Position numbers and translations under genes: made by a program
Part shown: positions 10,018-55,241 of the stretch, in pieces
Position numbering within the stretch: position 1 is the first letter of the stretch
Layout: every line of letters starts with the position of its first letter
Notes under the pieces: model-generated
Databases searched by the model: none
The model's input: only the letters and a program-made list of their open reading frames with translations
What the model was told of the DNA's origin: nothing
NCBI GenBank assembly: GCA_031414535.1
Contig: JANNVQ010000029.1
Location: 128,001-192,000 of the forward strand
DNA length: 64,000 nucleotides
Direction of reading: 5' to 3'
From: Gemmatimonas sp.
GTDB taxonomy: Bacteria > Gemmatimonadota > Gemmatimonadetes > Gemmatimonadales > Gemmatimonadaceae

Positions 10018-10072
10018 CCAATGACTTTACGACTTGGCGCAGAAGCTGACTAGAGGGTACGTCCTCGAGGAC

Positions 10073-10088
10073 TGTGACCTAGTGCACA
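10073..10088. promoter_or_regulatory. CRP-family-like site TGTGA-N6-GCACA
   Basis: 9/10 match to TGTGA-N6-TCACA in the divergent gap between the Ig-repeat gene and kinase 1; palindrome GTCCTCGAGGAC adjacent at 10061-10072. Confidence 0.45.
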
Positions 10089-10181
10089 GAAATCATTCGG
10101 TACCACCTCGCGGAGGCGGGACCCAGCGGCCACATTTCCCGCTCAGCAAGCCCGCCGCTCCCCGTGTTCGACCCCGCCCGA

Positions 10182-12659
10182 GTGACCGACCTCCGCATCC
10201 AACTGCAGTCCACGCTCGGCGACGGCTACACCCTCGAACGAGAGCTCGGCGGCGGCGGCATGTCACGCGTGTTCGTGGCTCGCGACAATGCGCTCGGGCG
10301 CGAGGTTGTGGTGAAGGTGCTTGCCCCCGAGCTTTCGGCCGAAGTGAGCCTTGAGCGCTTCGCTCGCGAAATCGCGACGGCGGCACGCTTGCAGCAAGCG
10401 AACATCGTGCCCGTGCTCGCCTCGGGTGCCTCGGCTGGCCTCCCCTACTACACCATGCCCTTTGTGAAGGGCGAGTCGCTGCGTGCGCTGCTCGCGCGCG
10501 GCACTGTGTTATCGCTACACGATCGTCTCAATGTGCTGCGTGATGTGGCGCGGGCACTCGGCTACGCGCACGGCGAAGGCGTGGTGCACCGCGACATCAA
10601 GCCAGACAACATTCTGCTTTCGGCGGGCACCGCCGTGGTGACCGACTTTGGTATCGCGAAGGCCATCAGCGCGGCGCGCACGCACGATGGCTCGTCAGCG
10701 GCCAACGACGGGACGCTCACGCAGGCCGGGAGTAGCATCGGGACGCCAGCGTATATGGCGCCTGAGCAGGCGGTGGGCGAGGCCGTGGACCATCGCGCCG
10801 ACATTTACGCTTGGGGGGTGGTGGCGTACGAACTGCTGAGCGGCGCGCATCCCTTTGCGGGGAAGAGTGGTGCTTCGCAGTTGATTGCGGCGCATCTGGC
10901 GGAGATGCCAGTGTCGCTTGAGCTGCGCGCGCCTGAGCTGCCGCGTGAGGTGGCCACGTTGGTGATGCAGTGTTTGGCGAAGAAGCCGAGTGAGCGGCCG
11001 GCCGCGGCCAACATTTTGCTCGAGCGCCTTGCCGCCGTTACGACGCCGAGCGCTGGGCGGCCCGCTGAGCGTTCCGGTGCTTCCGCCAGCGCATCGAGTC
11101 AGCGTAGCATAGGCATCGGGGCGCTGATTCTGATTGCTGCTGCCGTAGCGTTCTGGTTCGTGAAGGGGCGCGATGCAAACGGAGATGCGAGTGCCAGTGC
11201 GACTGCAACCGCCCAGTCGGAAACACTCTCGTCGCTGGCCGTGCTGCCCTTCGTAAACACCAGCGGCGACGCGCAGGATGAGTACTTCAGCGACGGCCTC
11301 ACCGACGAACTCTCGCACGCTTTGTCAAAGCTCCCGGGCCTGCGCCTGGCCGGGCGCTCGTCGAGTTTCTCGTTCAAGGGCAAGACCATTCCCGCCTCTG
11401 AAGTAGGCGAGGCTCTCGGCGTAGGCGCCATCGTTGAAGGCACCGTGCGTCGCGCTGGCGATCGCATTCGTTTGACCGCGCAGCTCACGAGCACGCGCGA
11501 TGGGCAGGTGCTGTGGAGTGATGCCTTCGAGCGCACGGGCGCGGATGTGTTCGCGGTGCAGGATGCGTTCACGAGCGCCATCGTGGCCGCACTCACTCCG
11601 CGCCTCGCTCAGGCCGCGGGCGCGCGCACGACTTCAACGGATCCGTCGAATGTCACCGCGCGCGGGACCACTGATGCGTTGGCGTACGATCTGTATCTGA
11701 AGGGGCGATACTACTGGGCGCAGCGCGGCGCAGGCCCGCTCGATAGCGCGGTGAAGTATCTCGAGGCGGCCGTAGAGCGTGACGCTACGTTCGCACGCGG
11801 CTGGTCAGCGCTCGCGCTGGCTTACGTGATTCGTCCTAACTTCAATACCGACGTCGATTTCGCTCTCTCTGACGCGAAGGTGGACGTCGCGGCGCGGCGG
11901 GCGCTCGCCATTGATTCCACCAGTGCGGATGCTCACGCCGCTCTCGGCTTTCGCGCCATTCGCCGATTCGACTTTGCGCTGGCTGCGGCCTCGCTGGAGG
12001 CCGCGCGCCGGCTCGAGCCGGGCAGCGCCATCGCCGCACACTGGTCGGCCATCTACTATCACGCCGTGGGCGATACGATTCACGCAGAGGAGCAGATGGA
12101 GCGTGCCGTCACACTTGATCCGCTCTCGGCCACCACGCTCAACACGCGCGCCCGCATGCTCACCGAGCGGCGGCAGCTCGCGCGGGCCCGCGAAACGGAC
12201 GCTCAAGCGGCGTCTCTCAGCGCATCATTCACGAACTACCGCGTGTCATCGCTGATCTGGTCGGGATTGGCGGATAGCGCGTTTCGCTCGACGCGGCGCA
12301 TCCCCGCGTCTGATCGGTCCCGAAGCCGATTCGGCAACGCCATCATGGCCGCGGCGGCTGCTGGTCAATGGGACGTCGCGCGCGCGCTGCAACGGGAGAT
12401 TAGCGCGGGAGGTGATGGAGTGCGATCGATTGATCGTGCGGCCGCGGCGCTCGTGTTTGGTGATCGCGCGGCGGCTGCCGCCTTGTTCATTGACAACCTC
12501 GAGAACGACGGCGGGCTCGCGAACATGGCGTTCTCCGTCTGCTATCTGCCGTACGACGCCATTCGCGCCGAGCCGGCGTGGAAGGCGTTTCTTGCAAAGC
12601 ACCAGATGAAGGAGTGCCCGTACACTTCGCCCTGGCCGATTGGAGTGGCGCCCCGGTGA
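10182..12659 (+). CDS. Ser/Thr kinase 1: kinase-TM-TolB_N-like-TPR
   Basis: GGGGMSRV, VVKVL, HRDIKPDN, DFG, GTPAYMAPEQ; TM IGIGALILIAAAVAFWFV; SLAVLPF...DEYFSDGLTDEL; TPR-like helices. GTG 10182 chosen by alignment with paralogs. Confidence 0.92.
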   Translation: MTDLRIQLQSTLGDGYTLERELGGGGMSRVFVARDNALGREVVVKVLAPELSAEVSLERFAREIATAARLQQANIVPVLASGASAGLPYYTMPFVKGESLRALLARGTVLSLHDRLNVLRDVARALGYAHGEGVVHRDIKPDNILLSAGTAVVTDFGIAKAISAARTHDGSSAANDGTLTQAGSSIGTPAYMAPEQAVGEAVDHRADIYAWGVVAYELLSGAHPFAGKSGASQLIAAHLAEMPVSLELRAPELPREVATLVMQCLAKKPSERPAAANILLERLAAVTTPSAGRPAERSGASASASSQRSIGIGALILIAAAVAFWFVKGRDANGDASASATATAQSETLSSLAVLPFVNTSGDAQDEYFSDGLTDELSHALSKLPGLRLAGRSSSFSFKGKTIPASEVGEALGVGAIVEGTVRRAGDRIRLTAQLTSTRDGQVLWSDAFERTGADVFAVQDAFTSAIVAALTPRLAQAAGARTTSTDPSNVTARGTTDALAYDLYLKGRYYWAQRGAGPLDSAVKYLEAAVERDATFARGWSALALAYVIRPNFNTDVDFALSDAKVDVAARRALAIDSTSADAHAALGFRAIRRFDFALAAASLEAARRLEPGSAIAAHWSAIYYHAVGDTIHAEEQMERAVTLDPLSATTLNTRARMLTERRQLARARETDAQAASLSASFTNYRVSSLIWSGLADSAFRSTRRIPASDRSRSRFGNAIMAAAAAGQWDVARALQREISAGGDGVRSIDRAAAALVFGDRAAAAALFIDNLENDGGLANMAFSVCYLPYDAIRAEPAWKAFLAKHQMKECPYTSPWPIGVAPR

Positions 12660-14890: not shown

Positions 14891-14912
14891 ACGACCACAC
14901 GAAATCCATCGT

Positions 14913-17570
14913 ATGAATGCAACGCAGGAACGTCTCGCGGCGGCCCTTGCCGACCGCTACCGCATCGAGCGTGAGCTCGGCGCCGGCGGGATGGCCACCG
15001 TCTACTTGGCGCACGACCTTAAGCACGATCGCGATGTAGCCATCAAGGTGTTGCACCCGGATCTCGGCGCCGCGCTCGGCGGTGAGCGCTTCTTAGCCGA
15101 GATCCGCACGACGGCGCGCTTGCAGCATCCGCATATCCTCCCGCTGCTCGACAGCGGTGAGGCGGATGCGCTGCTCTACTACGTGATGCCGCTCGTGACC
15201 GGCGAGACGCTGCGCGCGCGGCTCGAGCGCGAGAAGCAACTGCCGATCGCCGAAGCCGTGCGCATCGCGCGCGAAGTGGCGAGCGCGCTCGACTACGCGC
15301 ATCGGCAGCACGTGATTCACCGCGACATCAAGCCGGAGAACATCCTCCTGCATGATGGTAGCGCACTCGTCGCCGACTTTGGCATCGCCCTCGCGGTGCA
15401 GAGTGCGGGCGGCGCGCGCATGACGCAAACGGGACTCTCGCTTGGCACGCCGCAGTACATGAGCCCAGAGCAGGCGATGGGCGAGCGCGCCATTGATGCG
15501 CGCAGCGACATCTATGCGCTCGGTGCCGTGACCTACGAGATGCTCGCCGGGGATGCGCCATTCACCGGCAGCAGCGTGCAGGCCATCGTGGCCAAGGTGC
15601 TCAACAGCGAGCCCGAACGACTGTCGATGCTGCGGAAGACCATTCCGCCGCACGTCGAAGCGGCGGTGCTCACCGCGCTGGCCAAGTTGCCGGCCGATCG
15701 GTTTGCGAGTGCGGCCGAGTTTGCCGCGGCGCTGGCGACGGCGAATGGGTCGCCGGTCAGCGGTGCCACGACAGCGCCGGCACCGGGCCGCGCGCGGCGT
15801 ACGACGGCCGCGATACTGCTGAGCGCGGCCATGCTCATCGCCATCACCGCCGCTGCGACGTGGATGCTGGCGAGGCCGAGTGGAAACGGTGCAGCGCCCT
15901 CCGAAGTGGTGACGCGATTCACCATCGAAGGCACGAGCAACGTGACGTTGCAGAACCGCCTATTTGCGCTCTCCCCCGATGGCCGCACCTTGGTGATGTG
16001 GCAGTTCACCGCCAACCTCAGAAACCGACTGTTCCTGCGCCAGCTCGACCAGCTGGACATGACGCCTCTTGCCGGGGGCAGCAACGGAGCCGATCCGACG
16101 TTCTCGCCCGACGGTCGCTGGATCGCCTTTGTGGGGGAACGCCAGCTCTTCAAGGTGGCCGTGTCCGGCGGCGATCCGATTCGCGTTGCCACGCTGCCGC
16201 TGCAGCCCCAGGGCATCACGTGGACGACTGGTGGCGACATCGTGTACGCCGTGCAGTCCGACTCGCTGTTCGCGGTGAAGGAAACGGGCGGGGTACCCCG
16301 CGCGATTGCCGCGGCGCCGGCGGGCGCCGTGGCGCGTTGGCCCATTGCGCTGGCACAGTCGAACGTGGTGCTTTTCACGGCTAACTCCCGTACGGGCGAC
16401 TCTGTGCGTGTGCTCGCGCTTTCTCTCGCGGACGGAACAGTCAGCGACGTGGGAACCGATGCCTATATGGTGGTGGGAGTTGCCCGCGGCCATCTGGTGT
16501 ATCTGAGTCGCACCGGTGAGATCTTTGCCGCGCCATTCAACGTGCGTACGAACACCGTCACGGGCCGCGGCGAACTGATGGGCGGCGGCGTGAAGATGAC
16601 CCCCAGTGGCACGGGACTGGGCTACGCGGTGATGTCAGCGTCGGGTGACTTGGTGTACATCAATGAGAAATCCGCTGGGCTGCTGACGTATCGCGATCCG
16701 CAGGGCCGACTCGCACCGGCACTGCCGGACACGCTGGCCTTTGAGCACCCGCGCTTCTCACCCGACGCTCGTCGCCTCGTGGTGACGGTGAGCGATAGTG
16801 CCACGCGACGTGGCACGCTCAGCCTGCTCGACCGTTCCAACGGATTCTTCACGCCACTTGCCGGACAGGACCGACAGGCTGGACGTGATCGCGCCGAGTG
16901 GACACCCGATGGTCGGAGCATACTCTTCCGCTCGCTCACCGACTCGTTGCGGAGCGCGATGCTGCGCTCGGCCGATGGCAGTGGTACCGATACGCTACTC
17001 TTGCGGGCGAGAAGCGTCGTGTACGAAGTGGTGATGGCACCCGATGGCCAGACGATTCTTGGCCGTGTCCAGAACGACGCGGCCGATCGCGCCCAGGGTG
17101 TGTTCTGGTGGACACGCGGTGACAGCACGCTGCGCTCGTTGCCGCACGTGACGACGGATGGTGGCACGATGACCGGTGCCCGTCTCTCGCCCGATGGAAA
17201 ATGGATCGCGATGAGCGCGGACGCCGAAAGACACGTGTACGTCGCGCCCTTCCCGGGCCCCGGCCCCCAGGTGCGTATCGACCGCGCCGGTGGTGGCCCG
17301 CCGGTGTGGGCGCGCGACGGTCGCAGCCTCTACTACGTCACGCCGAGCGGCCTGGTGGCCACGACCCTCGATCTCTCGGCGGGGGTTAAGGTGGGCAGCA
17401 CGCTAACACTACTCGGCCCCGAGTTCGTGTCCAACGATGTCACGCATGCACCCTTCGACGTGGGGCCCGATGGCACGATCGTGTTCGTGCGGCAGACGCG
17501 ATTCCCGAGGCTGGTGGTGGTGCGCAACTTCGCGGCGGAGATTGGGCGCGCTCAGGCGGCGGGGAAGTAG
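14913..17570 (+). CDS. Ser/Thr kinase 3: kinase(class A)-TM-PD40/TolB beta-propeller
   Basis: Full Hanks motifs; TM AAILLSAAMLIAITAAATWML; many SPDG repeats; C-terminal LVVVRNFAAEI. Confidence 0.93.
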   Translation: MNATQERLAAALADRYRIERELGAGGMATVYLAHDLKHDRDVAIKVLHPDLGAALGGERFLAEIRTTARLQHPHILPLLDSGEADALLYYVMPLVTGETLRARLEREKQLPIAEAVRIAREVASALDYAHRQHVIHRDIKPENILLHDGSALVADFGIALAVQSAGGARMTQTGLSLGTPQYMSPEQAMGERAIDARSDIYALGAVTYEMLAGDAPFTGSSVQAIVAKVLNSEPERLSMLRKTIPPHVEAAVLTALAKLPADRFASAAEFAAALATANGSPVSGATTAPAPGRARRTTAAILLSAAMLIAITAAATWMLARPSGNGAAPSEVVTRFTIEGTSNVTLQNRLFALSPDGRTLVMWQFTANLRNRLFLRQLDQLDMTPLAGGSNGADPTFSPDGRWIAFVGERQLFKVAVSGGDPIRVATLPLQPQGITWTTGGDIVYAVQSDSLFAVKETGGVPRAIAAAPAGAVARWPIALAQSNVVLFTANSRTGDSVRVLALSLADGTVSDVGTDAYMVVGVARGHLVYLSRTGEIFAAPFNVRTNTVTGRGELMGGGVKMTPSGTGLGYAVMSASGDLVYINEKSAGLLTYRDPQGRLAPALPDTLAFEHPRFSPDARRLVVTVSDSATRRGTLSLLDRSNGFFTPLAGQDRQAGRDRAEWTPDGRSILFRSLTDSLRSAMLRSADGSGTDTLLLRARSVVYEVVMAPDGQTILGRVQNDAADRAQGVFWWTRGDSTLRSLPHVTTDGGTMTGARLSPDGKWIAMSADAERHVYVAPFPGPGPQVRIDRAGGGPPVWARDGRSLYYVTPSGLVATTLDLSAGVKVGSTLTLLGPEFVSNDVTHAPFDVGPDGTIVFVRQTRFPRLVVVRNFAAEIGRAQAAGK

Positions 17571-17596
17571 GGGATGCGCCGTCACGAACATCGCGC

Positions 17597-18007
17597 CTAC
17601 GGCACCAACGACACCAAGCGGTTCTGTGCCGTGCGCACCGCGCCGAAATGACGCCGGTCGGTGGTGAGGATCTCGCGCGCATCGAGTCGTTCGGCAACGG
17701 CAATCACCGTCGCATCAACGAAGCCCAAGGGGAAGTTGAGATACGTACGCATCAGCTCCGAAGCACGAATCACGTCGTCCGACTCCACCGGCTCGATGAT
17801 CAACTCGCCGTCCGCCACCGATTGCACGAAGGCCTGCTCCGCCTGCGCACTGATGCGCGTTTGCAGCAAGTAGCACACTTCTGGTAGCACGGTGACCGGC
17901 ACGCGCACCTGACGCGCCTGCGCGGTCCACCACGCGGTGACTCGCTCGTGCCACGCGTCACTACGATCGATCAACGCATACAGGGGACCGGTGTCGGCGA
18001 TGACCAT
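17597..18007 (-). CDS. vapC: PIN-domain toxin (VapC family)
   Basis: IADTGPLYALIDRSDAWH, VLPEVCYLL, LGFVDATVIAVAERL, ILTTDRRHF; its ATG overlaps the antitoxin stop (TGATG). Confidence 0.93.
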   Translation of the reverse strand: MVIADTGPLYALIDRSDAWHERVTAWWTAQARQVRVPVTVLPEVCYLLQTRISAQAEQAFVQSVADGELIIEPVESDDVIRASELMRTYLNFPLGFVDATVIAVAERLDAREILTTDRRHFGAVRTAQNRLVSLVP

Positions 18008-18237
18008 CAGCCGTGCGGATCTTTCCAGAGCAGGGTGTCCACCTGCTCTGATGTATTGCTCACGCCACTCGCAAACTGCCCGGCGATGGAGGGCAACGGC
18101 GACGGCGCGCCCGGAGCGGCGAGATACATCGCCACGGCCTCGCGAACCAGAGACGCCGTACTCACGCCCGTGCGCTGCGCGACTCGATGCAACTGGAGCA
18201 TCATTTGGTCATCGAAGAACACCGTGGTGCGTTTCAT
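18007..18237 (-). CDS. vapB: RHH/CopG-family antitoxin (VapB)
   Basis: MKRTTVFFDD...LHRVAQRTGVSTASLVREAVAMYL; directly upstream of the PIN gene. Alternative start at 18255. Confidence 0.88.
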   Translation of the reverse strand: MKRTTVFFDDQMMLQLHRVAQRTGVSTASLVREAVAMYLAAPGAPSPLPSIAGQFASGVSNTSEQVDTLLWKDPHG

Positions 18238-18239
18238 GA

Positions 18240-18267
18240 CATATATATGGCGCATATGCGCATCATA
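18240..18267 (-). promoter_or_regulatory. vapBC promoter/operator: -10 TATGAT and two palindromes
   Basis: CATATATATG (18240-18249) and GCGCATATGCGC (18250-18261) are perfect palindromes; TATGAT on the minus strand at 18267-18262. Confidence 0.65.
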
Positions 18268-18309
18268 GTCAAGGCTGCGATGATGTGCGAATCTTACTCG
18301 CCATTTTAA

Positions 18310-18346
18310 GACTATAGTCATTGACTATAGTCATGAGTTATATACT
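18310..18346 (+). promoter_or_regulatory. phd-vapC promoter/operator: two GACTATAGTC palindromes and -10 TATACT
   Basis: GACTATAGTC at 18310-18319 and 18323-18332 (13-bp period); TATACT at 18341-18346, 6 nt before ATG 18353. Confidence 0.75.
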
Positions 18347-18352
18347 TATATA

Positions 18353-18610
18353 ATGCCCACCAAGCCCACTGAGACCATCGCCATCTCCGAGTTCAAGGCC
18401 ACCTGCCTGGCCGTCCTCGAACGCGTACGCCGCACCGGCGCGTCCATCGTTGTCACCAAGCGCGGCGAGCCGATTGCTGAGATCAACCCGCCTTCGCCGG
18501 CGAGCACCGGTGAGCAGTGGCTCGGGTCGATGAGCGGCACCGCCACGATGGCGGACGATCTGATTGCGCCCGCCAGTGCCTCCACCGACTGGGACGCGCT
18601 CGGCACGTGA
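18353..18610 (+). CDS. Phd/YefM family antitoxin
   Basis: IAISEFKATCLAVLERVRRTGASIVVTKRGEPIAEI; GTGA overlap with the PIN gene. Confidence 0.92.
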   Translation: MPTKPTETIAISEFKATCLAVLERVRRTGASIVVTKRGEPIAEINPPSPASTGEQWLGSMSGTATMADDLIAPASASTDWDALGT

Positions 18611-19005
18611 AGAAGCTCTTACTCGATACCCACATCTGGCTTTGGGCACTGCTAGATCCCGCCCGCCTCTCACCGGCGGTCCGAGCCGAACTTGCGTCCG
18701 CCGAGAACGAGATTTGGCTCTCACCAATCAGTGTGTGGGAAGCGATATTGCTCGCCGAGCGCGGGCGTGTGCGCGTTGACACGACGCCCGCGGAGTGGGT
18801 GGCGCGTATGGTGAGCGCACTCCCGCGACGCGAAGCGCCGCTGACGCACGACATCGCGGTCGCCAGTCGGCTGCTTACGCTCGTGCACGAGGATCCGGCG
18901 GATCGGTTCCTCGCGGCGACGGCGCAGGTGCTGGGTCTCACGCTGGTCACCGCCGACGCGCGGCTCATTGCATCCACGGAGTTTGCAGTAATGGCGAATC
19001 GATGA
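18607..19005 (+). CDS. vapC: PIN-domain toxin (VapC family)
   Basis: LLLDTHIWLW, LSPISVWE, HEDPADRFLAATA, LVTADARL; GTG start 18607; stop overlaps the ATG of kinase 4. Confidence 0.93.
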   Translation: MKKLLLDTHIWLWALLDPARLSPAVRAELASAENEIWLSPISVWEAILLAERGRVRVDTTPAEWVARMVSALPRREAPLTHDIAVASRLLTLVHEDPADRFLAATAQVLGLTLVTADARLIASTEFAVMANR

Positions 19006-29615: not shown

Positions 29616-29640
29616 TGCCCGCAACAAAGGTGGAGGCGAT

Positions 29641-32292
29641 TTGACGCAGTCCGTGAGTGAGCGGCTCAGTGCCGCGCTTTCTGATCGGTATCGCATTGAG
29701 CGCGAGCTCGGCCAAGGCGGAATGGCCACCGTGTATCTCGCCGAGGACCTCAAGCACAAGCGTCGCGTCGCTGTCAAGGTGCTCAAGCCGGAACTCGCCG
29801 CCGTCCTCGGCGCCGAGCGTTTCGTGGTGGAGATCACGACGACAGCCGCGCTCCAACATCCGCACATCTTGCCGCTGTTTGATTCCGGCGAAGCTGACGG
29901 CTTCCTGTACTATGTGATGCCGTTCATCGACGGCGAAACGCTACGAGGCAAGCTCGATCGCGAAACGCAGCTGAGCGTGGACGAGAGCGTACGCATCGCC
30001 AGTGACGTGGCGAGCGCGCTGCACTACGCGCACACGCAGGGCGTAATCCATCGCGACATCAAGCCCGAGAACATCCTGCTGCACGATGGTCGCCCGATGG
30101 TGGCGGACTTTGGCATCGCGCTCGCGGTTTCAGCGGCGGCTGGTGGGCGGATGACGGAGACGGGCCTCAGCCTCGGCACGCCGCACTATATGTCGCCCGA
30201 ACAAGCGACGGCCGAGAAGGAGATCACGGCCAAGAGCGACGTGTACTCGCTCGGTTCCGTGCTCTACGAAATGCTCACGGGCAACCCGCCGCACGTGGGC
30301 GCGAGCGCGCAGCAGATCATTATGAAGATCATCACCACGCCAGCTGAGTTGGTGACGGTGCATCGCAAGGCGGTGCCGGCGCACGTGGCTGATGCTGTGG
30401 CGAAGTCATTGGAAAAGTTGCCGGCCGACCGGTTCTCAAGCGCGAAGGCGTTTGCAGAGGCGCTCGCAAACTCAGCGTTCCGTTCAGCCACCATTGGAGT
30501 GACGGTCGCCACGTCTTCGCAGACGTCCGGCAGTTGGCGCACCGCAGCGCTCGCGCTCGGCGCCGTCGCAGTGGTCACAACTTCGATTGCGCTGATGGGT
30601 GGAACCGGCGGAAGTGGAGAGTCGCGCGACGTTGGGCTCTTGCCGACCGCACCGATGCGAATGCAAAACACCAAGCGGAACTTCGCCGTTTCGCACGATG
30701 GCACTTTCATCGTGTACGAGGCACGACTTGGGGAGTCGTCTCAACTCTGGTATCAGAGTCTCATCGACTCCGTGTCGCGCGCCATCACCGGGACGGAAGG
30801 CGCTGTTGGCGCTCCACGTATCTCACCCGACGATCGACGCATCGCCTTTGAGAGCGAAGGAGAGGTAAAGATCATCAGCGTGGACGGCGGCACCGCAACA
30901 GTGGCGGTGCGCGCCGAGGATCTCACCGGCGGCGGATGGCTCGCGAATGGGCAGATCTTCTTCGGCGCGGACGACGGGCGAGTGATGCGCTGGGTGGACG
31001 CCGAGACGGGTCCGGCGCGCACCGAACGCATCGGGCTCTGTATCCATCCCCAGTTAATGGAAGGACGGAATCGGATTCTCTGCGGAGGGGGATCGACGAA
31101 GGTCGCCTACGCGGTCGATCCCGCCCGCCCCGATGAACGGCTCTTCCTCCGTCGGTCTGCTGAAGCTGCGACCGCTGGCCCACCACTCGTGCTCGGCTCT
31201 GATTTCCGCATCGTGGACGGTGAGTATCTCGTCTATATGTCCATTGATGGCACGATAATGGGCGCTCGGTTCGAGGATATCGATTCACTTATCGTAGGTC
31301 GCTCGGTGCCGCTTGTCTCCGGTGTGCGTCGCAGCGCATACTCGGCGTCCGGGCACTTCGATATTACCGACAACGGCACCCTCGTGTTTGTGCCGGGCAT
31401 TAACGCAGAGGTCGGACGCCTCGTGCAGTGGTCGCGTGAGCAGGGCATCGTGCCGCTGCGCGTGGACGAAGGCGCGCACCTGCGATTCACGCCGAGTCCA
31501 GACGGCACGCGGTTGGGAACGGTCGTTGAGGGAATTCAGGAACAGGAACTCCGCATCTATGACCTGCGCACCGGGACGCACGAGACGGTTGACCAGGGCT
31601 ATTACCTCGGCGGGCCGCGATGGAGTCCCGATGGACGCAGCATCGCTTATCTGAAGCGGGAGTACGCGACCCCAACGCAGGAGAAGGTGCTCCTGCGTCG
31701 GCTTGAATCTCCGGAGCCACCGCGCGTTCTCATCAGCGGAGACTATCGCGCGAATGAACCCTCGTCCTTCCTGGCCGATGATTTTCTTTTGTTGGGCGTG
31801 AGCATCAGTCAAGGCAGGAACGTGATTGTTGATCCCACGTCCAATCCCGTTGGCATCGATACGCTGCCGCTGAGCAGCTTCTTCATCTCGCTGTCGCCCG
31901 ACCGCAAATGGATTGCGTATCAACCCCAAGGGGCGATTGGCGTCACTCTTCAGCCGTGGCCGGCGCTTGACCGCCGATATCAGGTTGACCCGCTCGGTGC
32001 CGAACCACGCTGGGCATCGGCGAATGAGTTGGTGTATCTGCGGCGGCGTCTTGGCAAGTACTCGGAGCAGCGCGTGCGCATCGATGCGTCATCGAGCACG
32101 CCTGTGGGGAAGCCCGAGTTGCTCTTTGACGATCCACGCTTCGCGGATACGCCTGGGTGGTCGCATTCGCTCGGCAGGAATGGCGAAGTCGTGTACGTCC
32201 AGACGCCGGATGAGATCCTAGGCTACTATGTGCGCGTGGTGCCGAACTGGGTGAAGGCGATGAAGCGTGCGGTGAATGAGGCCAATCGATGA
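29641..32292 (+). CDS. Ser/Thr kinase 8: kinase(class C)-TM-divergent beta-propeller
   Basis: TTG start with GGAGG RBS; Hanks motifs; TM AALALGAVAVVTTSIALM; sensor related to that of kinase 12. Confidence 0.92.
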   Translation: MTQSVSERLSAALSDRYRIERELGQGGMATVYLAEDLKHKRRVAVKVLKPELAAVLGAERFVVEITTTAALQHPHILPLFDSGEADGFLYYVMPFIDGETLRGKLDRETQLSVDESVRIASDVASALHYAHTQGVIHRDIKPENILLHDGRPMVADFGIALAVSAAAGGRMTETGLSLGTPHYMSPEQATAEKEITAKSDVYSLGSVLYEMLTGNPPHVGASAQQIIMKIITTPAELVTVHRKAVPAHVADAVAKSLEKLPADRFSSAKAFAEALANSAFRSATIGVTVATSSQTSGSWRTAALALGAVAVVTTSIALMGGTGGSGESRDVGLLPTAPMRMQNTKRNFAVSHDGTFIVYEARLGESSQLWYQSLIDSVSRAITGTEGAVGAPRISPDDRRIAFESEGEVKIISVDGGTATVAVRAEDLTGGGWLANGQIFFGADDGRVMRWVDAETGPARTERIGLCIHPQLMEGRNRILCGGGSTKVAYAVDPARPDERLFLRRSAEAATAGPPLVLGSDFRIVDGEYLVYMSIDGTIMGARFEDIDSLIVGRSVPLVSGVRRSAYSASGHFDITDNGTLVFVPGINAEVGRLVQWSREQGIVPLRVDEGAHLRFTPSPDGTRLGTVVEGIQEQELRIYDLRTGTHETVDQGYYLGGPRWSPDGRSIAYLKREYATPTQEKVLLRRLESPEPPRVLISGDYRANEPSSFLADDFLLLGVSISQGRNVIVDPTSNPVGIDTLPLSSFFISLSPDRKWIAYQPQGAIGVTLQPWPALDRRYQVDPLGAEPRWASANELVYLRRRLGKYSEQRVRIDASSSTPVGKPELLFDDPRFADTPGWSHSLGRNGEVVYVQTPDEILGYYVRVVPNWVKAMKRAVNEANR

Positions 32293-34994
32293 CTGATACT
32301 CGCGCACGGCTCAACGCCGCGCTCTCTGACCGCTACCGCATTGAGCGCGAGCTCGGCGCTGGCGGGATGGCCACCGTCTACTTGGCGCACGACCTTAAGC
32401 ACGATCGCGATGTTGCTATCAAGGTGCTGCATCCCGACCTAGGCGCGGCTCTCGGCGGTGAACGTTTCTTAAGCGAGATCCGCACAACCGCCCGCTTACA
32501 ACACCCGCATATCCTCCCGCTGCTCGACAGTGGCGAGGCGGACACGCTGCTGTACTACGTGATGCCGCTCGTGACCGGCGAAACGCTGCGCGCGCGTCTC
32601 GAGCGCGAGCGACAGCTGCCGGTTGCCGATGCGGTGCGCATTGCGCGCGAAGTGGCGAGCGCGCTCGACTACGCGCATCGCCAGGGCGTCATTCATCGCG
32701 ACATCAAGCCGGAGAACATCCTTCTGCACGATGGCTCAGCGCTCGTGGCCGACTTTGGCATCGCGCTCGCGGTGCAACAGGCAGGCGGTGCGCGGATGAC
32801 GCAGACGGGCCTCAGTCTCGGCACACCGCAGTATATGAGTCCCGAGCAGGCGATGGGCGAACGCAGCATTGATGCGCGCAGCGACATCTATGCGCTTGGT
32901 GCGGTGCTCTACGAGATGCTCGCTGGCGATGCACCGTTTATTGGTGGCAGCGTGCAGGCCATTGTGGCCAAGGTGCTGAACGAGAAGCCAACGCCGCTGC
33001 ACACGCTGCGGGATACGGTGCCAGAGTCGGTGGAGACTGCGGTGCTCACCGCTTTGGCCAAGCTTCCTGCGGATCGCCATGCGACAGCGGCGGCATTCTC
33101 CACCGCTCTTGAGGTCACGTCGGCCACGAGCACAACCTCCGGTGCGCGGCGTGCATCTGCCGTGCCTCCGACGCGCACGTCGATGATGTTGCGGTTCGCG
33201 CCTTGGTTGCTGGCTGCAGGACTCGCGCTGGCTCTTGCTTGGCAGAGTCGTGACAGCGCGACGAGCGCCGTGACGAGTCGGCAAATGGTAACTCTGTGGA
33301 AGCAAGCCATCGCCTCTCCACTGGACGTCGGCGCTTCACGGCTCGGCAACGAAGCCGCCATCGCACCTGATGGCTCGACCATCATCTACACTGACTCCTC
33401 GTCCAGCGGTCGCATCCTGATGCGAAAGGCGCGTGACGCCGCCGAGGCTACGCCGATTCCCGGAACGGAGCGTGGGCTGTCGCCCTTCTTCTCCCCTGAC
33501 GGGAAGTGGATTGGATTTCTCACGCAGGATGGCTTTCTACGGAAAGTGCCGGCAGATGGCGGGGCTGGAGCGGTTACGCTGCTGGAGATGAAATCCATAT
33601 CGGCGTATGCGTCGAGTGCTTGGTTGGCGGATGGCAGCATCGTGGTCTATGAAGGTGGGGAAGTCATACGCGTCTCCAGCGACGGCGCGCCGCTTCCGGC
33701 GCCGAACGTCTCAGCAAGTGGTGTTGGCGCGGGCACCGACCAGGGAAACGATGTCGTTGCGCTCAGTGTGCTTCCCGACGCGAGGGGATTCCTCTTTACC
33801 ATCTGCGCGGGTTCCTGTAGCGTCGGCTCCTCCGTGTGGGCGTACGACGCGAAGGCGGACAGTGCCCACCTGCTGTTGCCGCAGGGCTTGGGCGCGTGGT
33901 ATGCACCAACGGGACACCTCGTTTACACGAGTCGAGAGGGCGGCCTGTATGCGAGTCCGTTCGACCTCAAGACCTTGCAGCTCACCGGTGGTTCCTTCTC
34001 CGTCATTGACGGCGTAATCCCGTCGAAGTTCGCGCTCTCGCCGTCGGGTGCTGTGGTGTACTCGATTGATCGCATCGCTGATGCGCCATCGGCGTTGGTT
34101 TGGGTCTCGCGCGACGGGCGCGCGGAGCAGGTGGATTCCAGCTGGCGCGCCGCGTTCGAGTATCCGGCCATTGCGCCGGATGGTCAATCGCTTGCCGTCG
34201 GATTGCGCGACAAATCCACAGAGCTGTGGATTTGGCGGAACGATAGGACTCGGCGCCGGATACGGTCCAACGTCGAGCTGAACTGGCGGCCTTCGTGGAG
34301 CAGTGACGGGCAGTCGTTGGCGTACGTGGCGATTCGCGAGCCGGAAGGGGGCGAACCGCTGTTGGCCTTGCCAATGATCACGCGGGCCGATGGCACAGGC
34401 TCAGCGGTGCCATTGGATTCCTCTCCCGGTCGCAATTACTTCGAAGTTGAGCTGTCGCGCGACGGGGAGTGGGTGGTGTTTCGCGTGGACGAGAGAGGCA
34501 GCGCTCTCGCGCGCGGCTCGAAGATGTACTACCGCCGCCGCTCTGGCGATACCACGCTACGTGTGGTGCCAACGGGCGAGGGCTCGGCGCTGCAGCCCGC
34601 GCTCTCACCCGATGGCAAGTGGTTGGCGTATGGAGCTGGCGCATTGGTGGGTAGCCGAGAAATCATCGTGCAGTCCTTTCCGGATGCAGAGCAACGCGTG
34701 GTCGTATCAGAAGAGGGCGGCTCGGAGCCGAGGTGGTCGGCCAATGGCCGCGAACTCTTCTTCAGGCGCGGCGGGCAGATGATGGTGGTCTCGGTGCCGC
34801 CTGAACCCGTCTTCTCACCGGGGCCCGCACGCGCGCTCTTCTCAGCCGTCGGTTACCGCGCCGCGCGCAATCGCCCGCAGTACGACGTGACTCCCGATGG
34901 TCAGCGCTTCTTGATGATTCGCGAGAACTCGGCGTCGCAGGTGGTTTATGTCGAGAATTGGTTCACCGAGTTGCTGGCGAAGGCTAAGCAGTGA
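32289..34994 (+). CDS. Ser/Thr kinase 9: kinase(class A)-TM-PD40 beta-propeller
   Basis: ATGA overlap; kinase domain nearly the same as kinase 3; TM FAPWLLAAGLALALAW. Confidence 0.93.
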   Translation: MTDTRARLNAALSDRYRIERELGAGGMATVYLAHDLKHDRDVAIKVLHPDLGAALGGERFLSEIRTTARLQHPHILPLLDSGEADTLLYYVMPLVTGETLRARLERERQLPVADAVRIAREVASALDYAHRQGVIHRDIKPENILLHDGSALVADFGIALAVQQAGGARMTQTGLSLGTPQYMSPEQAMGERSIDARSDIYALGAVLYEMLAGDAPFIGGSVQAIVAKVLNEKPTPLHTLRDTVPESVETAVLTALAKLPADRHATAAAFSTALEVTSATSTTSGARRASAVPPTRTSMMLRFAPWLLAAGLALALAWQSRDSATSAVTSRQMVTLWKQAIASPLDVGASRLGNEAAIAPDGSTIIYTDSSSSGRILMRKARDAAEATPIPGTERGLSPFFSPDGKWIGFLTQDGFLRKVPADGGAGAVTLLEMKSISAYASSAWLADGSIVVYEGGEVIRVSSDGAPLPAPNVSASGVGAGTDQGNDVVALSVLPDARGFLFTICAGSCSVGSSVWAYDAKADSAHLLLPQGLGAWYAPTGHLVYTSREGGLYASPFDLKTLQLTGGSFSVIDGVIPSKFALSPSGAVVYSIDRIADAPSALVWVSRDGRAEQVDSSWRAAFEYPAIAPDGQSLAVGLRDKSTELWIWRNDRTRRRIRSNVELNWRPSWSSDGQSLAYVAIREPEGGEPLLALPMITRADGTGSAVPLDSSPGRNYFEVELSRDGEWVVFRVDERGSALARGSKMYYRRRSGDTTLRVVPTGEGSALQPALSPDGKWLAYGAGALVGSREIIVQSFPDAEQRVVVSEEGGSEPRWSANGRELFFRRGGQMMVVSVPPEPVFSPGPARALFSAVGYRAARNRPQYDVTPDGQRFLMIRENSASQVVYVENWFTELLAKAKQ

Positions 34995-35030
34995 AGGTTC
35001 AGTCGTGAACGTCACCCCCAAGCAAGACTA

Positions 35031-37673
35031 ATGAACGCCATCACGCAGCGTCTTTCCCTCGCCCTCGCCGACCGCTACCGCATCGAACGCGAGCTCGGCA
35101 TGGGTGGTATGGCCACGGTCTACCTCGCTCACGACATCAAGCACGACCGCAAGGTCGCCGTAAAGGTCCTCAAGCCTGAACTGGCCGCCGTACTCGGCGC
35201 CGAACGCTTCGTGGTGGAGATCAAGACCACGGCCAGTATGAGCCATCCGCACATCCTGCCGCTCTTCGACAGTGGCACTTCGGATGGCTTCCTGTTCTAT
35301 GTGATGCCGTACGTGGAAGGCGAGACGCTGCGCGACACGCTGAATCGCGAGAATCAGCTTGGCATTGATGACGCGGTGCGCATCGCGCGAGAAGTGCTCG
35401 ATGCGCTGCACTACGCACATTCACGCGGCGTCATTCATCGCGATATCAAGCCGGAGAACATCCTGATGCAGGGTGGCCGGCCGATGGTGGCGGACTTCGG
35501 CATTGCGCTCGCGGTGTCAGCGGCGGCTGGTGGTCGTATGACCGAGACCGGCCTCTCGCTGGGTACGCCGCACTATATGAGCCCGGAGCAGGCGACCGCC
35601 GAGAAGGAGATTACGGCGCGGGCGGACGTGTACTCGCTCGCGAGCGTGCTCTACGAGATGCTCACCGGCGAGCCGCCGCATATGGGCACCTCGGCGCAGC
35701 AGATCATCATGAAGATCATCACCGAGCCTGCAGGGGCGGTGACCAAGTTGAGAAAATCCGTGCCGCCGCACGTGGCGGCCGCGGTGGGGAAGGCCTTGGA
35801 GAAGTTGCCGGCTGATTGCTTTGAGAGCGCGAAGGCATTCCGCGAGGCATTGGGTGATCCTGGGTTCACCGTGGCGGGCACGGCGGCGGCGGGAGTCACA
35901 TCCAAGGCATCGCGCGGCAGCAGAGTGGGATTGCTGATGGGCTGGGCAGTCGCTGCGATTGCGCTGGCGGCGGCAGTGGCGTTGTGGATGCGTCCCGCAC
36001 CAGAGCAACTGTTTCGGCGATTCGATCTCGTGACTGGCGATCTCGTCCCCCGCGTGCAATCGGACATCGCCATTTCGCCTGATGGAAGCAAGCTAGCGAT
36101 GGCAGGGACGGTGGGCGGTGAGACGGCCATCTATATCCGCAATCTTGATGGCGATGCGGAGTTTCGGAAACTCGCTGGTACTGAGAATGGCGTCCTCCCA
36201 GACTTCTCACCGGATGGTGAGTGGATCGTGTTCCGGCGGGATAGCGACAAGTCCCTCGTGAAGATTTTGGCGAGCGGTGGCGGCGCCGTCACCCTCGTGA
36301 CCAGTGGGGCGGTCGATCCCTACTTTCCGCAGTGGGAGACGCCTGATCGAATCATCTTCACCACCTTCAGGGAAGTCTACAGCGTTGGTATCGGCGGCGG
36401 GGAGCTCACGCCCCTGCCCAAGGTGACCTGGGGCCGAATTTCTGTGTTGCCCGATGGGAGCGGCGTGCTGCACTCAGACGGTGACGTAAGGCTCTACGAT
36501 TTCGCCACGGACTCCTCCTACCTCTTGGTTCCCGGCGGCGTCGCTCCCACTTACGTGTCTACCGGACACCTCCTCTATGTAGCCAGCGAGGGCGGCCTCT
36601 TTGCTGTGCGGCTCAACCTTGCGACTCACGCTGTGGAGGGGTCACCGGTACGCGTGCTCGAGCGCGTGGGAGCGGGAACGCTTGCGCGCGGTTATTCGAT
36701 GTCGGCAACTGGTGTCCTCGTACAGAGGGATGCGGACGGTGCGGCCAGTTTGAACTTCAACAGCCTCGTCATTGTAGATCCGGGTAAGGGCGCGGATACG
36801 CTTCGCTTGCCACCAGCCCGCCGTGCGAAGATGCGCTTCTCTCCTGACGGGCGCTCCCTCGCGATAGAGGTTTCTAAACCCGATGCGGACACCGACATCT
36901 ACTCGCTCGATCTCGTGACCGGCACATATACCCAGCTCACTTTTGAGGGAGATAACGACGAGGCGATTTGGTCACCGGATGCGAAGCGGTTGCTTTTTGA
37001 TATGCGCGTGCAGGCAAGTCCAGCTGGCGAGGATCTCCACATCAAGCCGGCAGACAACAGTGCCGCGCCGCGCCGCCTGACGATGCTCGGGGCGCAGGAG
37101 CTGTCGGCGTCGCAATGGCTCAGCGATACGCTCTTGCTCTTTGAGGCGATCTCTGCGGGTCGGGGCTACGACCTGTTCACCATCAAGTCCGACTCCGGCA
37201 GCGTACCGGTGCCCTATCTGCAGACACCAGCCAACGAAACTGAGGCGCGCATCTCTCCGGACCGGAAACTCATCAGCTACACGTCTGATGAAGGAGGCCA
37301 GCAGGTGTGGATGCGAGACTTCCCCATTCCGCAGGGCAAGTGGAGTATCTCCCAAGGTCGAGGGCGCGCTGCGCGCTGGTCATCCGACGGGCAATACGTG
37401 TACTTCTGGAGAGGCGCCACGCCGCTGGACTCCCTGTTCCGCGTTCGCGTGGAGCGTACGCCGAATATCGTCGTGCGGGCGCCGGAGTTGGTCCTCGCCA
37501 CAGACGTTGTCGATATCAGCGCCTGGGATCTCCATCCCGATGGACGGCGCTTCATTGTCAGTGTGCCCACGAGCACCGGCACGTCCGCGGCTCGTGGATC
37601 GTCTTCCCGATATTTGATCCTGCAGAACTTCTTCAGCGAGTTGAATCGGCTTACCACTCCTCGGCCGAAGTAG
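35031..37673 (+). CDS. Ser/Thr kinase 10: kinase(class B)-TM-PD40 beta-propeller
   Basis: Hanks motifs; TM VGLLMGWAVAAIALAAAVALW; subdomain XI reads LPADC rather than LPADR. Confidence 0.92.
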   Translation: MNAITQRLSLALADRYRIERELGMGGMATVYLAHDIKHDRKVAVKVLKPELAAVLGAERFVVEIKTTASMSHPHILPLFDSGTSDGFLFYVMPYVEGETLRDTLNRENQLGIDDAVRIAREVLDALHYAHSRGVIHRDIKPENILMQGGRPMVADFGIALAVSAAAGGRMTETGLSLGTPHYMSPEQATAEKEITARADVYSLASVLYEMLTGEPPHMGTSAQQIIMKIITEPAGAVTKLRKSVPPHVAAAVGKALEKLPADCFESAKAFREALGDPGFTVAGTAAAGVTSKASRGSRVGLLMGWAVAAIALAAAVALWMRPAPEQLFRRFDLVTGDLVPRVQSDIAISPDGSKLAMAGTVGGETAIYIRNLDGDAEFRKLAGTENGVLPDFSPDGEWIVFRRDSDKSLVKILASGGGAVTLVTSGAVDPYFPQWETPDRIIFTTFREVYSVGIGGGELTPLPKVTWGRISVLPDGSGVLHSDGDVRLYDFATDSSYLLVPGGVAPTYVSTGHLLYVASEGGLFAVRLNLATHAVEGSPVRVLERVGAGTLARGYSMSATGVLVQRDADGAASLNFNSLVIVDPGKGADTLRLPPARRAKMRFSPDGRSLAIEVSKPDADTDIYSLDLVTGTYTQLTFEGDNDEAIWSPDAKRLLFDMRVQASPAGEDLHIKPADNSAAPRRLTMLGAQELSASQWLSDTLLLFEAISAGRGYDLFTIKSDSGSVPVPYLQTPANETEARISPDRKLISYTSDEGGQQVWMRDFPIPQGKWSISQGRGRAARWSSDGQYVYFWRGATPLDSLFRVRVERTPNIVVRAPELVLATDVVDISAWDLHPDGRRFIVSVPTSTGTSAARGSSSRYLILQNFFSELNRLTTPRPK

Positions 37674-38871: not shown

Positions 38872-38947
38872 GTAACGTGAACGTTCAAGACAGCCGGGTA
38901 GTGCGCGAGATCACTGTCCATGTCGGCTCCGCGGGGTAGAATGAAGA

Positions 38948-40162: not shown

Positions 40163-40211
40163 GGCACGAGCTCTAAGAATCAAGCGAGAGCGGCGCTGGC
40201 TATCTTTCCGC

Positions 40212-44224: not shown

Positions 44225-44269
44225 GTCCCGAATCTAGCGCCCAGCCTCAAGGCGGCGTAACGTTGCCAC

Positions 44270-52194: not shown

Positions 52195-52276
52195 TGTTGG
52201 CGGCGTTGGGAAGGGATGGAGGCCTGGGGCAAACATACTCTTGCCCCCTCCGTATCGTCAGGCAGATTTCTTCTAC

Positions 52277-55189: not shown

Positions 55190-55241
55190 GACCTACGATG
55201 ATTCATCTCTGCTCGTGCAGTATTCTCGTTTTGGAATCGCG

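What the first reader, a model, noticed from the sequence alone, without database searches (positions are those of the whole stretch)
10182..37673. Tandem array of receptor-like Ser/Thr kinases: conserved kinase, highly variable sensor
Seen: ten co-oriented kinase genes over 27.5 kb, seven back-to-back (19002-37673), mostly joined by start/stop overlaps. Eight have kinase-TM-~560-aa PD40 propeller. Kinases 6 and 8 differ at only 5 positions over about 240 kinase residues by my count, yet their sensors share little beyond SPDG motifs. Known: Hanks kinases with extracytoplasmic propellers act as receptors. Inference: a polymorphic receptor repertoire feeding many ligands into a shared phosphorylation output, analogous to plant receptor-kinase clusters, possibly for phage/competitor/kin or polymer sensing. 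I do not know of such an array being characterised. This is the best candidate novel system here.
Basis: partly seen in the sequence, partly recalled or inferred. Interest (0 to 1): 0.9.

Follow-up and report, generated by a model that had tools for sequence, protein, structure and literature searches.

The report
Interchangeable receptor-kinase gene array
A sediment bacterium carries a row of ten kinase genes, most of them membrane receptors, whose near-identical kinase halves appear to serve as recombination handles, so that old, distinct outer sensor domains are reshuffled, lost, gained and passed between related species; what they sense is unknown.

Summary
The array is real: ten co-oriented Hanks kinases with catalytic motifs intact. 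K3-K10 are kinase-TM-sensor, the sensor a double six-bladed TolB/PD40 propeller (AF2 pLDDT 92); K1/K2 carry a CadC-like/TPR domain; two VapBC pairs lie inside. It is not a misassembly. The sensors are not hypervariable: orthologous sensors are 84-92% identical (dN/dS 0.09-0.26). They are ancient paralogs (24-43%) re-paired with young kinases: K6/K7/K8 kinases differ by pS 0.37-0.39, AU tests reject kinase/sensor congruence in 6 of 7 tests, and some kinases look chimeric. Relatives carry arrays of up to 25 kinases with other order and content. Array genes shared with a sister species are younger (pS 0.20-0.46) than other genes (median 0.61), which points to transfer between species. Toxin-antitoxin passengers and kinase 5' stubs mark insertion or deletion events. 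Best reading: a recombinase-free cassette array anchored on kinase DNA, feeding many periplasmic inputs into a few kinase subtypes. Ligands and substrates are unknown; a defence role is unproven. Kinase-PD40 fusions are published; I found no paper on this exchange system. This scan noted similar arrays before in Acidobacteria, Zixibacteria and Gemmatimonadales.

The parts
10182..12659 (+). K1: Hanks kinase (10227-11000), TM (11106-11162), extracytoplasmic alpha/beta + TPR domain homologous to that of K2
   Evidence: ortholog in G006 follows the K4 ortholog instead
12656..14890 (+). K2: kinase (12701-13474) without TM; C-terminal alpha/beta + TPR domain resembling the CadC periplasmic sensor domain (start GTG 12656 or ATG 12668)
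   Evidence: AF2 pLDDT 88.9; Foldseek 3ly7 TMt 0.66, rmsd 4.5
14913..17570 (+). K3: kinase (K3/K9 subtype)-TM (15813-15869)-double propeller
   Evidence: G006 ortholog 97% kinase, 84% sensor
17597..18007 (-). VapC (PIN) toxin of TA pair 1
   Evidence: PF01850 4e-12
18007..18321 (-). RHH antitoxin of TA pair 1 (likely start near 18237)
   Evidence: PF12651 6e-5
18353..18610 (+). Phd/YefM-type antitoxin of TA pair 2
   Evidence: PF02604 2e-6, below the curated cut-off
18607..19005 (+). VapC (PIN) toxin of TA pair 2; its stop overlaps the K4 start (ATGA)
   Evidence: PF01850 5e-12; a 73% ortholog precedes a different kinase in G018
19002..21671 (+). K4: kinase (K4 subtype)-TM (19908-19964)-double propeller
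   Evidence: G006 ortholog 99%/90%
21668..24304 (+). K5: kinase (K5/K10 subtype)-TM-double propeller
   Evidence: G018 sensor ortholog 84%
24301..26973 (+). K6: kinase (24346-25119; K6/K7/K8 subtype), TM (25201-25257), double six-bladed propeller (25258-26970)
   Evidence: AF2 pLDDT 92, pTM 0.89; TolB 2ojh Z 27.9, PknD sensor 1rwi Z 20.6
26970..29615 (+). K7: kinase (K6/K7/K8 subtype)-TM-double propeller
29641..32292 (+). K8: kinase 97% identical to K6, sensor of a distant family (nearest in-genome sensor is K12, 35%)
32289..34994 (+). K9: kinase with a chimera signal (K3-like to codon ~118, then like the kinase at G000:C29:234795)-TM-double propeller; sensor family seen in 7 of 16 genomes
35031..37673 (+). 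K10: kinase (K5/K10 subtype)-TM-double propeller; the copy whose divergence from G006 matches the genome background (pS 0.55/0.67)
51887..55189 (+).
55242..57890 (+).
37675..41432 (.). Right flank (hypothetical protein 37675-38871 and porin O/P 40212-41432) syntenic with the flank of the differently composed G006 array

Best explanation
A cassette-like array of single-pass receptor Ser/Thr kinases in a probable Gemmatimonadota bacterium, remodelled by homologous recombination in which the ~0.8 kb kinase-coding DNA is the repeated anchor and the linker-TM-sensor (plus any passenger genes) is the unique cargo. Shown by sequence: kinase-sensor re-pairing, variable order and content at one locus, sensor and passenger replacement between near-identical haplotypes, array genes younger than the rest of the genome between sister species, purifying selection on sensors. 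Inferred: pop-out, pop-in and gene conversion between kinase repeats, and one-sided (homology-facilitated illegitimate) events that bring in TA operons and leave kinase 5' stubs; incoming DNA possibly by transformation (comEC present). Inferred function, from known Hanks-kinase biology: each periplasmic double propeller binds its own protein or peptide ligand on the variable top faces, which dimerises and activates the cytoplasmic kinase; because kinases fall into a few near-identical subtypes, many inputs converge on a few substrate sets (candidates in the genome: SARP/BTAD regulators and FHA proteins, reset by PP2C).
For: K6/K7/K8 kinases pS 0.37-0.39 (dS ~0.55) with sensors 25-34% identical, whereas ortholog pairs at dS 0.3-0.7 keep 84-92% sensor identity and K10 keeps 66% at dS ~1.7. 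Among 61 proteins kinase vs sensor identity has Spearman 0.08; 22 of 29 pairs with kinase >=90% have sensors <40%. AU tests on 38 proteins reject 3 of 3 kinase clades on sensor data (p 8e-5, 3e-4, 5e-56) and 3 of 4 sensor clades on kinase data (p 2e-4, 0.002, 0.011; K10 clade 0.067). Intragenic breakpoints in K9 and K12 kinases (chi 40.9, 28.2). G006 at the syntenic locus has K2-K3-X-K8-K10-like, and elsewhere K4-K1; G018 has K5-K6 stub-TA-K7; a ~96% identical strain in run X3 joins the K4 end to a K6/7/8-type kinase. Array genes vs G006 pS 0.20-0.46 against median 0.61 (7 of 69 other best hits at or below 0.46); vs G018 0.26 and 0.35 against 0.62 (0 of 21); low- and high-pS genes sit on one G006 contig. 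Three G138 contigs 95-99.8% identical over shared parts differ at one junction (nothing / VapBC / another small ORF) and carry replaced units (pS 0.40 and 0.56 beside 0.03-0.09). Top-face BC loops are the least conserved (0.16-0.19) and richest in gaps, bottom AB loops most conserved (0.52).
Against: No ligand, substrate, expression or activity data. pS is near saturation in these GC-rich genomes and the baseline uses one-way best hits at >=55% identity. Max-chi p-values sit at the permutation floor (1e-4, 1092 triplets, so not significant after Bonferroni at that resolution) and rate heterogeneity can mimic breakpoints; one AU test did not reject. Most comparison genomes are MAGs, and G138 'haplotypes' are my reading of three co-binned contigs with frameshifts in one. 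Conserved bottom turns are expected of any PD40 repeat, so the face pattern is weak evidence of binding. TA enrichment is uneven (see full report).
Confidence: 0.72

Rival explanations
1. Immune-like surveillance array: sensors recognise foreign proteins entering the periplasm (phage ejection proteins, bacteriocins, competitor effectors) and the kinases trigger defence or dormancy, partly through the co-transcribed toxin-antitoxin modules.
For: Open-ended repertoire (129 sensors from 16 genomes give 76 families at 45% identity, 50 singletons), patchy distribution (33 of 121 genomes of the class), transfer between species, TA operons often overlapping kinase starts, passengers matching PADLOC candidates PDC-S01 and PDC-S03; TolB-type propellers bind short protein motifs (recalled).
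Against: Sensors under purifying selection, some families persisting across bacterial families (K9 family in 7 of 16 genomes); sensor has no PADLOC match and the kinase match to PD-T4-6 covers only the kinase domain; homologs of the two TA toxins tested lie beside a kinase in only 2 of 44 loci; TA types vary freely.
Confidence: 0.25
2. Nutrient or polymer scouting: sensors bind peptides or proteinaceous polymer fragments made by the many secreted hydrolases encoded in and near the arrays, and switch on their degradation and uptake.
For: Non-TA passengers in relatives' arrays include S9, M1 and M14 peptidases, amidases, beta-lactamase-like hydrolases and sulfatases; the window itself has S9, M28 and M42 peptidases and a sulfatase; K11 carries an FGE-like and hydrolase-like ectodomain; nearest Atlas clusters carry DPPIV_N/Tricorn_N propeller families.
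Against: Passengers are not consistently paired with a sensor family; I did not measure whether such hydrolases are more frequent near arrays than elsewhere in these genomes.
Confidence: 0.35
3. Ordinary old tandem duplication, with kinase similarity kept by purifying selection alone and neutral local shuffling; no exchange system.
For: STK paralog expansions are known in Acidobacteria without positive selection (PMC3174227 passages); omega is low everywhere.
Against: Selection on protein cannot keep synonymous sites alike (kinase pS 0.37-0.39 vs sensor 0.62-0.74), nor explain incongruent trees, order changes, or array genes younger than the genome background.
Confidence: 0.08
4. Assembly artefact joining scattered paralogs.
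For: G000 is a 58-contig assembly; run unitigs break inside the kinases; G006 holds several orthologs on separate small contigs.
Against: Longest exact repeat 59 nt; five junctions bridged in X1; flat sensor depth; similar arrays on large contigs of G029 (25 kinases in 93 kb) and G117 (12 in 36 kb; 4-contig genome).
Confidence: 0.03

Closest known systems
Mycobacterium tuberculosis PknD (receptor Hanks kinase with extracellular beta-propeller; PDB 1rwi; PMC4601284 passages)
   Same: Kinase-TM-propeller layout; propeller 1 of K6 aligns to the PknD sensor at Z 20.6, rmsd 3.0 over 237 residues.
   Different: Here two six-bladed TolB/PD40 propellers (12 blades, the second inserted into the first), and a multi-copy exchangeable array rather than a single gene.
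Prokaryotic Ser/Thr kinases with PD40 or TPR domains; Solibacter STK paralog expansion (PMC2877116, PMC3174227 passages)
   Same: PD40 and TPR are listed among the commonest domains tethered to bacterial STKs; STK expansions without positive selection are reported in an acidobacterium.
   Different: The passages read do not describe tandem arrays, kinase-sensor re-pairing or transfer between species.
Vibrio cholerae T6SS effector-immunity arrays rebuilt by homology-facilitated illegitimate recombination (PMC9711863 passage); polymorphic toxin C-terminal exchange (PMC3482391, abstract start only)
   Same: A conserved coding region serves as recombination anchor, variable cargo is exchanged between species, remnants are left behind.
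   Different: Cargo here is a receptor ectodomain, not a toxin or immunity gene; the anchor is the signalling domain and is repeated in every unit.
Plant receptor-like kinase and NLR clusters (recalled, not read)
   Same: Tandem receptor genes with birth-death turnover and exchange among paralogs.
   Different: No evidence of diversifying selection here; horizontal exchange between species; independent origin.
Integron cassette arrays with TA cassettes (recalled)
   Same: Gene row with changing order and content and interspersed TA pairs.
   Different: No room for attC sites (genes overlap or are 8-36 nt apart) and no integrase among the window proteins scanned; exchange points lie inside coding sequence.

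Membership tests
Hanks-type (eukaryote-like) receptor Ser/Thr kinases | Pkinase domain with catalytic Lys, HRD, DFG and activation-loop Thr | tested here: met
   PF00069 1e-44 to 1e-50 for all 12 window kinases; motifs in the alignment of K3-K10, K12 and translations; K10 has Cys for the usually conserved subdomain XI Arg
Hanks-type (eukaryote-like) receptor Ser/Thr kinases | Single TM after the kinase with an extracytoplasmic C-terminal sensor | tested here: met
   One hydrophobic 19-mer (1.7-2.7), mostly preceded by Arg/Lys, in K1, K3-K12; not in K2. Prediction only.
Hanks-type (eukaryote-like) receptor Ser/Thr kinases | Ligand-induced dimerisation and autophosphorylation | not testable with these tools
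   needs biochemistry
PknD | Single six-bladed NHL-type extracellular propeller | tested here: not met
   12 blades in two propellers, PD40/TolB type, best match TolB Z 27.9
PknB/Stk1 PASTA kinases | PASTA repeats; NF033483 above cut-off | tested here: not met
   scores 264-315 vs cut-off 450 for the 8 kinases scanned, kinase part only; no PASTA hit
ECF sigma factor-STK modules | Sigma70_ECF gene next to the kinase | tested here: not met
   none among window proteins scanned; only weak genome-wide PF07638 hits, best 6.5e-7
Anti-phage kinase systems (PD-T4-6, MADS, BREX PglW) | Match beyond the kinase domain, or the cognate operon | tested here: not met
   matches cover the kinase only; K6 sensor has no PADLOC hit; NCBIfam MAD6 and PglW far below cut-off
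Integron cassette array | attC sites between genes and an integron integrase | tested here: not met
   intergenic distances -4 to 36 nt, 26 nt after TA pair 1; no integrase among the 39 window ORFs scanned against Pfam; no attC model search was run
Diversifying (arms-race) receptor arrays | dN/dS > 1 or hypervariable sites in the sensor among alleles or orthologs | tested here: inconclusive
   whole-domain omega 0.09-0.26; top loops only slightly more changed in 4 ortholog pairs (0.14-0.15 vs 0.09-0.12); too few alleles for site models
Type II VapBC toxin-antitoxin pairs | Small DNA-binding antitoxin gene upstream of, and overlapping, a PIN toxin gene | tested here: met
   toxicity not tested

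The most novel reading that the evidence does not exclude
A bacterial receptor 'library' without a dedicated recombinase: the kinase gene itself is the attachment site, so members of a sediment community trade sensor cassettes across species, and the library works as periplasmic non-self surveillance (phage or competitor proteins) converging on a few kinase outputs, with TA operons hitch-hiking to stabilise or execute the response. It would be a prokaryotic counterpart of plant receptor-kinase immune clusters, spread over Gemmatimonadota and Acidobacteriota.
Probability: 0.22. Interest if true: 0.88.

Novelty: new variant of a known kind. Interest (0 to 1): 0.62.

Why it matters
Gemmatimonadota and Acidobacteriota are abundant, little-studied soil and sediment bacteria with dozens of orphan Ser/Thr kinases. 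If kinase DNA is an exchange anchor, their sensory repertoire is a community-shared, plug-in pool, which explains why kinase trees do not predict sensors and makes ligand discovery tractable: one kinase reporter chassis could screen more than 70 natural double-propeller sensor families. It also extends conserved-anchor cargo exchange, known from toxin and immunity loci, to signal transduction.

Tried and rejected
Positive selection on sensors: not seen at domain level. Site-specific insertion at a fixed kinase position: three independent stubs end at kinase position 35-38 (G095, G018, and L043/L044 counted once), but others end near 23, ~48 and beyond 90, and the sequences after the break are unrelated, so not claimed. 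Obligate TA-kinase coupling: rejected, 2 of 44 homolog loci have kinase sequence within 1.5 kb (own locus and two unpublished-genome loci left out). PIN enrichment in arrays holds for G029 (4 of 9; one added), G049 (3 of 6) and G000 (2 of 13) but not G138 (1 of 9; eight cluster in a stretch with no kinase hit), G117, G033, G095 (0 of 5 each in the arrays fetched). Integron cassettes: no room for attC. ECF sigma partner: not found. Phage carriage: no relative of K6 in viral contigs with this query. Expression: no RNA holder listed. Promoter/terminator scan of 9900-19100 at chance level. Foldseek on the whole sensor gave only generic tandem propellers (LRP6, tricorn; TM ~0.3). A fifth AU test (G010_C77_20.0 + G013_C16_2.3) did not finish and was not repeated. 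No complex prediction was run. Literature searches that returned no description of such arrays; term look-ups in bioRxiv 10.1101/2025.01.12.632604 (no Acidobacter, propeller, PD40, tandem, WD40, duplication) and PMC10581226 (only metabolic kinases). The library lacks most subscription journals and I opened no supplements, where kinase architecture tables may list these proteins.
Full report
1. Observation. The window (G000:C29:128001-192000; 3.70 Mb, 58 contigs, 98% complete) holds ten co-oriented kinase ORFs at 10182-37673 and two more at 51887-57890. K3-K10 and K12 are kinase-TM-PD40; K1 is kinase-TM-TPR type; K2 has the same C-terminal domain but no TM; K11 has an FGE-like ectodomain. Four of six junctions in K4-K10 are 4-nt overlaps; the K3/K4 gap holds two divergent VapBC-type operons, the second overlapping the K4 start. 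The genome has 42 kinase ORFs, 14 with this sensor, 9 of those in the window. K6 and K8 kinases differ at 9 of 258 positions; array sensors are 24-43% identical. Misassembly is unlikely: paralog DNA is at most 88% identical with a longest exact repeat of 59 nt, and unitigs of run X1 bridge five junctions with 0-2 mismatches at flat sensor depth (X1 may be the source sample and its unitigs break in the kinases). The lineage is probably Gemmatimonadota: the nearest named sensor hits are Gemmatimonadales/Gemmatimonadaceae MAGs (46% and 43%) whose kinases are 73-86% like this group against 34-46% for Acidobacteriota; this is inference, not a marker-gene assignment.

2. Structure. AlphaFold2 on the K6 sensor with 99 rows gives pLDDT 92, pTM 0.89. 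Reading the strand list, it has two six-bladed propellers, the second (about 266-545) inserted into the last blade of the first, which is closed by N- and C-terminal strands. The second matches TolB (2ojh Z 27.9, rmsd 2.9, 261 residues), the first matches the PknD sensor (1rwi Z 20.6) and NHL domains equally well. Over 82 rows the bottom AB turns are conserved (pairwise identity 0.52) while top BC loops are least conserved (0.16-0.19) and most gapped (face labels are mine, from strand order). The K2 C-terminal domain is alpha/beta plus TPR (pLDDT 88.9), and among Foldseek hits the CadC periplasmic domain has the best target TM-score (3ly7, 0.66).

3. The sensors are old and conserved; the kinases are young. 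Orthologous sensors in G006 (K3, K4, K8, K9) and G018 (K5) are 84-92% identical with omega 0.09-0.26; kinases have omega 0.03-0.08. K10 orthologs keep 66-67% sensor identity at dS 1.7-1.8. K6, K7 and K8 kinases are separated by only dS 0.51-0.56, yet their sensors are 25-34% identical with saturated synonymous sites (pS 0.63-0.68). Point mutation since the kinases split cannot give that. Across 61 complete proteins from six genomes kinase and sensor identities barely correlate (Spearman 0.08). On 38 proteins of the genus, AU tests reject all three kinase clades on sensor data and three of four sensor clades on kinase data (groups taken from the other partition's tree, quick trees, LG+G4; a fifth test was not completed). 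Triplet scans put breakpoints inside K9 (codon ~118) and K12 (codon ~146) (1092 triplets, p at the 1e-4 floor).

4. Order and content change fast. G029 has 25 kinases, 20 with this sensor, in 93 kb; G117 has 12 in 36 kb; acidobacterial loci also show tandem copies. At the locus syntenic with the window's right flank, G006 has TA-K2-K3-X-K8-K10-like; on another contig K4 is followed by K1; G018 has K5, 51 codons of K6, a TA-like pair, then K7. Junction alignments keep identity through the sensor end and the overlap and switch within the next kinase. A contig of run X3, about 96% identical to the window, joins the K4 end and 38 nt of the next start to a K6/7/8-type kinase (record 20; only 130 nt on the far side). 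Three G138 contigs that I read as co-binned haplotypes differ at one junction (nothing, VapBC, another small ORF) and carry a replaced gene (pS 0.40) and a replaced sensor (67% identity, pS 0.56) beside units at pS 0.03-0.09. 129 sensors from 16 genomes form 76 families at 45% identity, 50 of them singletons.

5. Transfer between species. Against G006, six array genes have pS 0.20-0.46, while 69 other best hits (of 127 genes from 18 loci; >=55% identity, one-way) have median 0.61, with 7 at or below 0.46. Against G018 the values are 0.26 and 0.35 versus median 0.62 (0 of 21, of 57 genes). Low- and high-pS genes lie on one G006 contig, so mis-binning does not explain it. comEC is present; no viral copy was found.

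6. Passengers. TA operons of many types (VapBC, CopG-type, AbiEii-like nucleotidyltransferase pairs, HigBA), Uma2 and AAA-DUF4143 genes and secreted hydrolases are interspersed. PIN genes are enriched in the arrays of G029 (4 of 9), G049 (3 of 6) and G000 (2 of 13) but not in G138, G117, G033 or G095, and homologs of two toxins lie beside kinase sequence in 2 of 44 loci. They are therefore passengers, perhaps retained because they penalise deletion (recalled from integron work). Recurrent 'kinase stub-TA-kinase' layouts fit one-sided, homology-facilitated recombination, the mechanism proposed for V. cholerae T6SS arrays (PMC9711863, passage read); deletion after insertion would give the same picture.

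7. How it most likely works. Shown: architecture, re-pairing, turnover, purifying selection; strongly indicated: transfer between species. Inferred: repeats of kinase DNA separated by unique cargo allow excision, integration and conversion without a dedicated recombinase; each receptor binds a protein or peptide ligand in the periplasm, dimerises and autophosphorylates, and a few kinase subtypes funnel many inputs to shared substrates. The genome offers 5 BTAD/SARP-type proteins, 4 FHA ORFs and 3 PP2C phosphatases and no strong Sigma70_ECF-type partner; SARP/FHA regulators such as EmbR are known STK substrates (PMC4601284, passages). Whether the ligands are nutrients (0.35) or foreign proteins (0.25) is open; these two readings concern function and are compatible with the exchange mechanism.

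8. Known versus new. PD40- and TPR-bearing bacterial STKs (PMC2877116, passages), PknD, and STK expansion in Solibacter (PMC3174227, passages) are known. I found no paper on tandem arrays with kinase-anchored sensor exchange (subscription journals and supplements unseen). Earlier notes of this scan report similar arrays and kinase exchange in other genomes (e1-1491115, e1-2246493, e1-4694715) and one calls a Gemmatimonadales row ordinary (e1-4761243); my reading was formed before seeing them and was tested on this DNA only. Added here: the transfer signal against a genome background, haplotype-level replacement, and the TA/stub scars.

9. Verdict. Real, a new variant of a known kind of receptor kinase, with a well-supported exchange mechanism and unknown ligands. 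Interest 0.62; immune-library reading probability 0.22, interest 0.88 if true.

Noticed in passing
window 35817-35819 (K10): The Arg of kinase subdomain XI (ADRF in most paralogs) reads Cys in K10; it may impair the kinase or be a strain or assembly variant.
   Followed up: no
window 4687-10017 (-): 1776-aa protein with MG4 and weak Big_1/carboxypeptidase-regulatory matches, divergent from K1; probably a surface protein.
   Followed up: no
window 51887-55189: K11 joins a receptor kinase to an FGE-sulfatase-like domain and a hydrolase-like C-terminus; sulfatase and FGE genes lie at 43184-45706.
   Followed up: no
window 18230-18352: AT-rich spacer between the two divergent TA operons with a repeated GACTATAGTCAT palindrome-like motif, a likely operator; it may also drive K4-K10.
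   Followed up: no
L005:10537-12840 (G029:C3:364537): A decayed kinase N-terminus fused in frame to a PD40/S9 prolyl oligopeptidase inside the array.
   Followed up: partly
L108 near 19443 (G033:C74): A whole kinase-sensor unit deleted: kinase codon ~48 is joined to the last codons of a sensor through a short shared sequence.
   Followed up: partly
L129:10891, L030:2376, L043:11754, L044:11670, L148:2587: Kinase 5' stubs next to unrelated TA operons; three independent ones end at kinase position 35-38. Unexplained.
   Followed up: partly
G138:C4:447000-477000 (L125-L127): Eight PIN genes cluster in 30 kb with no kinase hit; possibly a TA-rich island.
   Followed up: no
L018:10460-11341 and L111:10548-10973: A PP2C phosphatase gene sits inside the G020 array; a short ORF with a similar N-terminus (by eye) sits in one G138 haplotype.
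   Followed up: no
kinase stretches of window 19000-35900: Summed contig depth over kinase stretches is up to 20-fold or more above sensors in all four sediment runs: many other sequences in the community share short >=95% identical kinase DNA, a possible recombination substrate.
   Followed up: no
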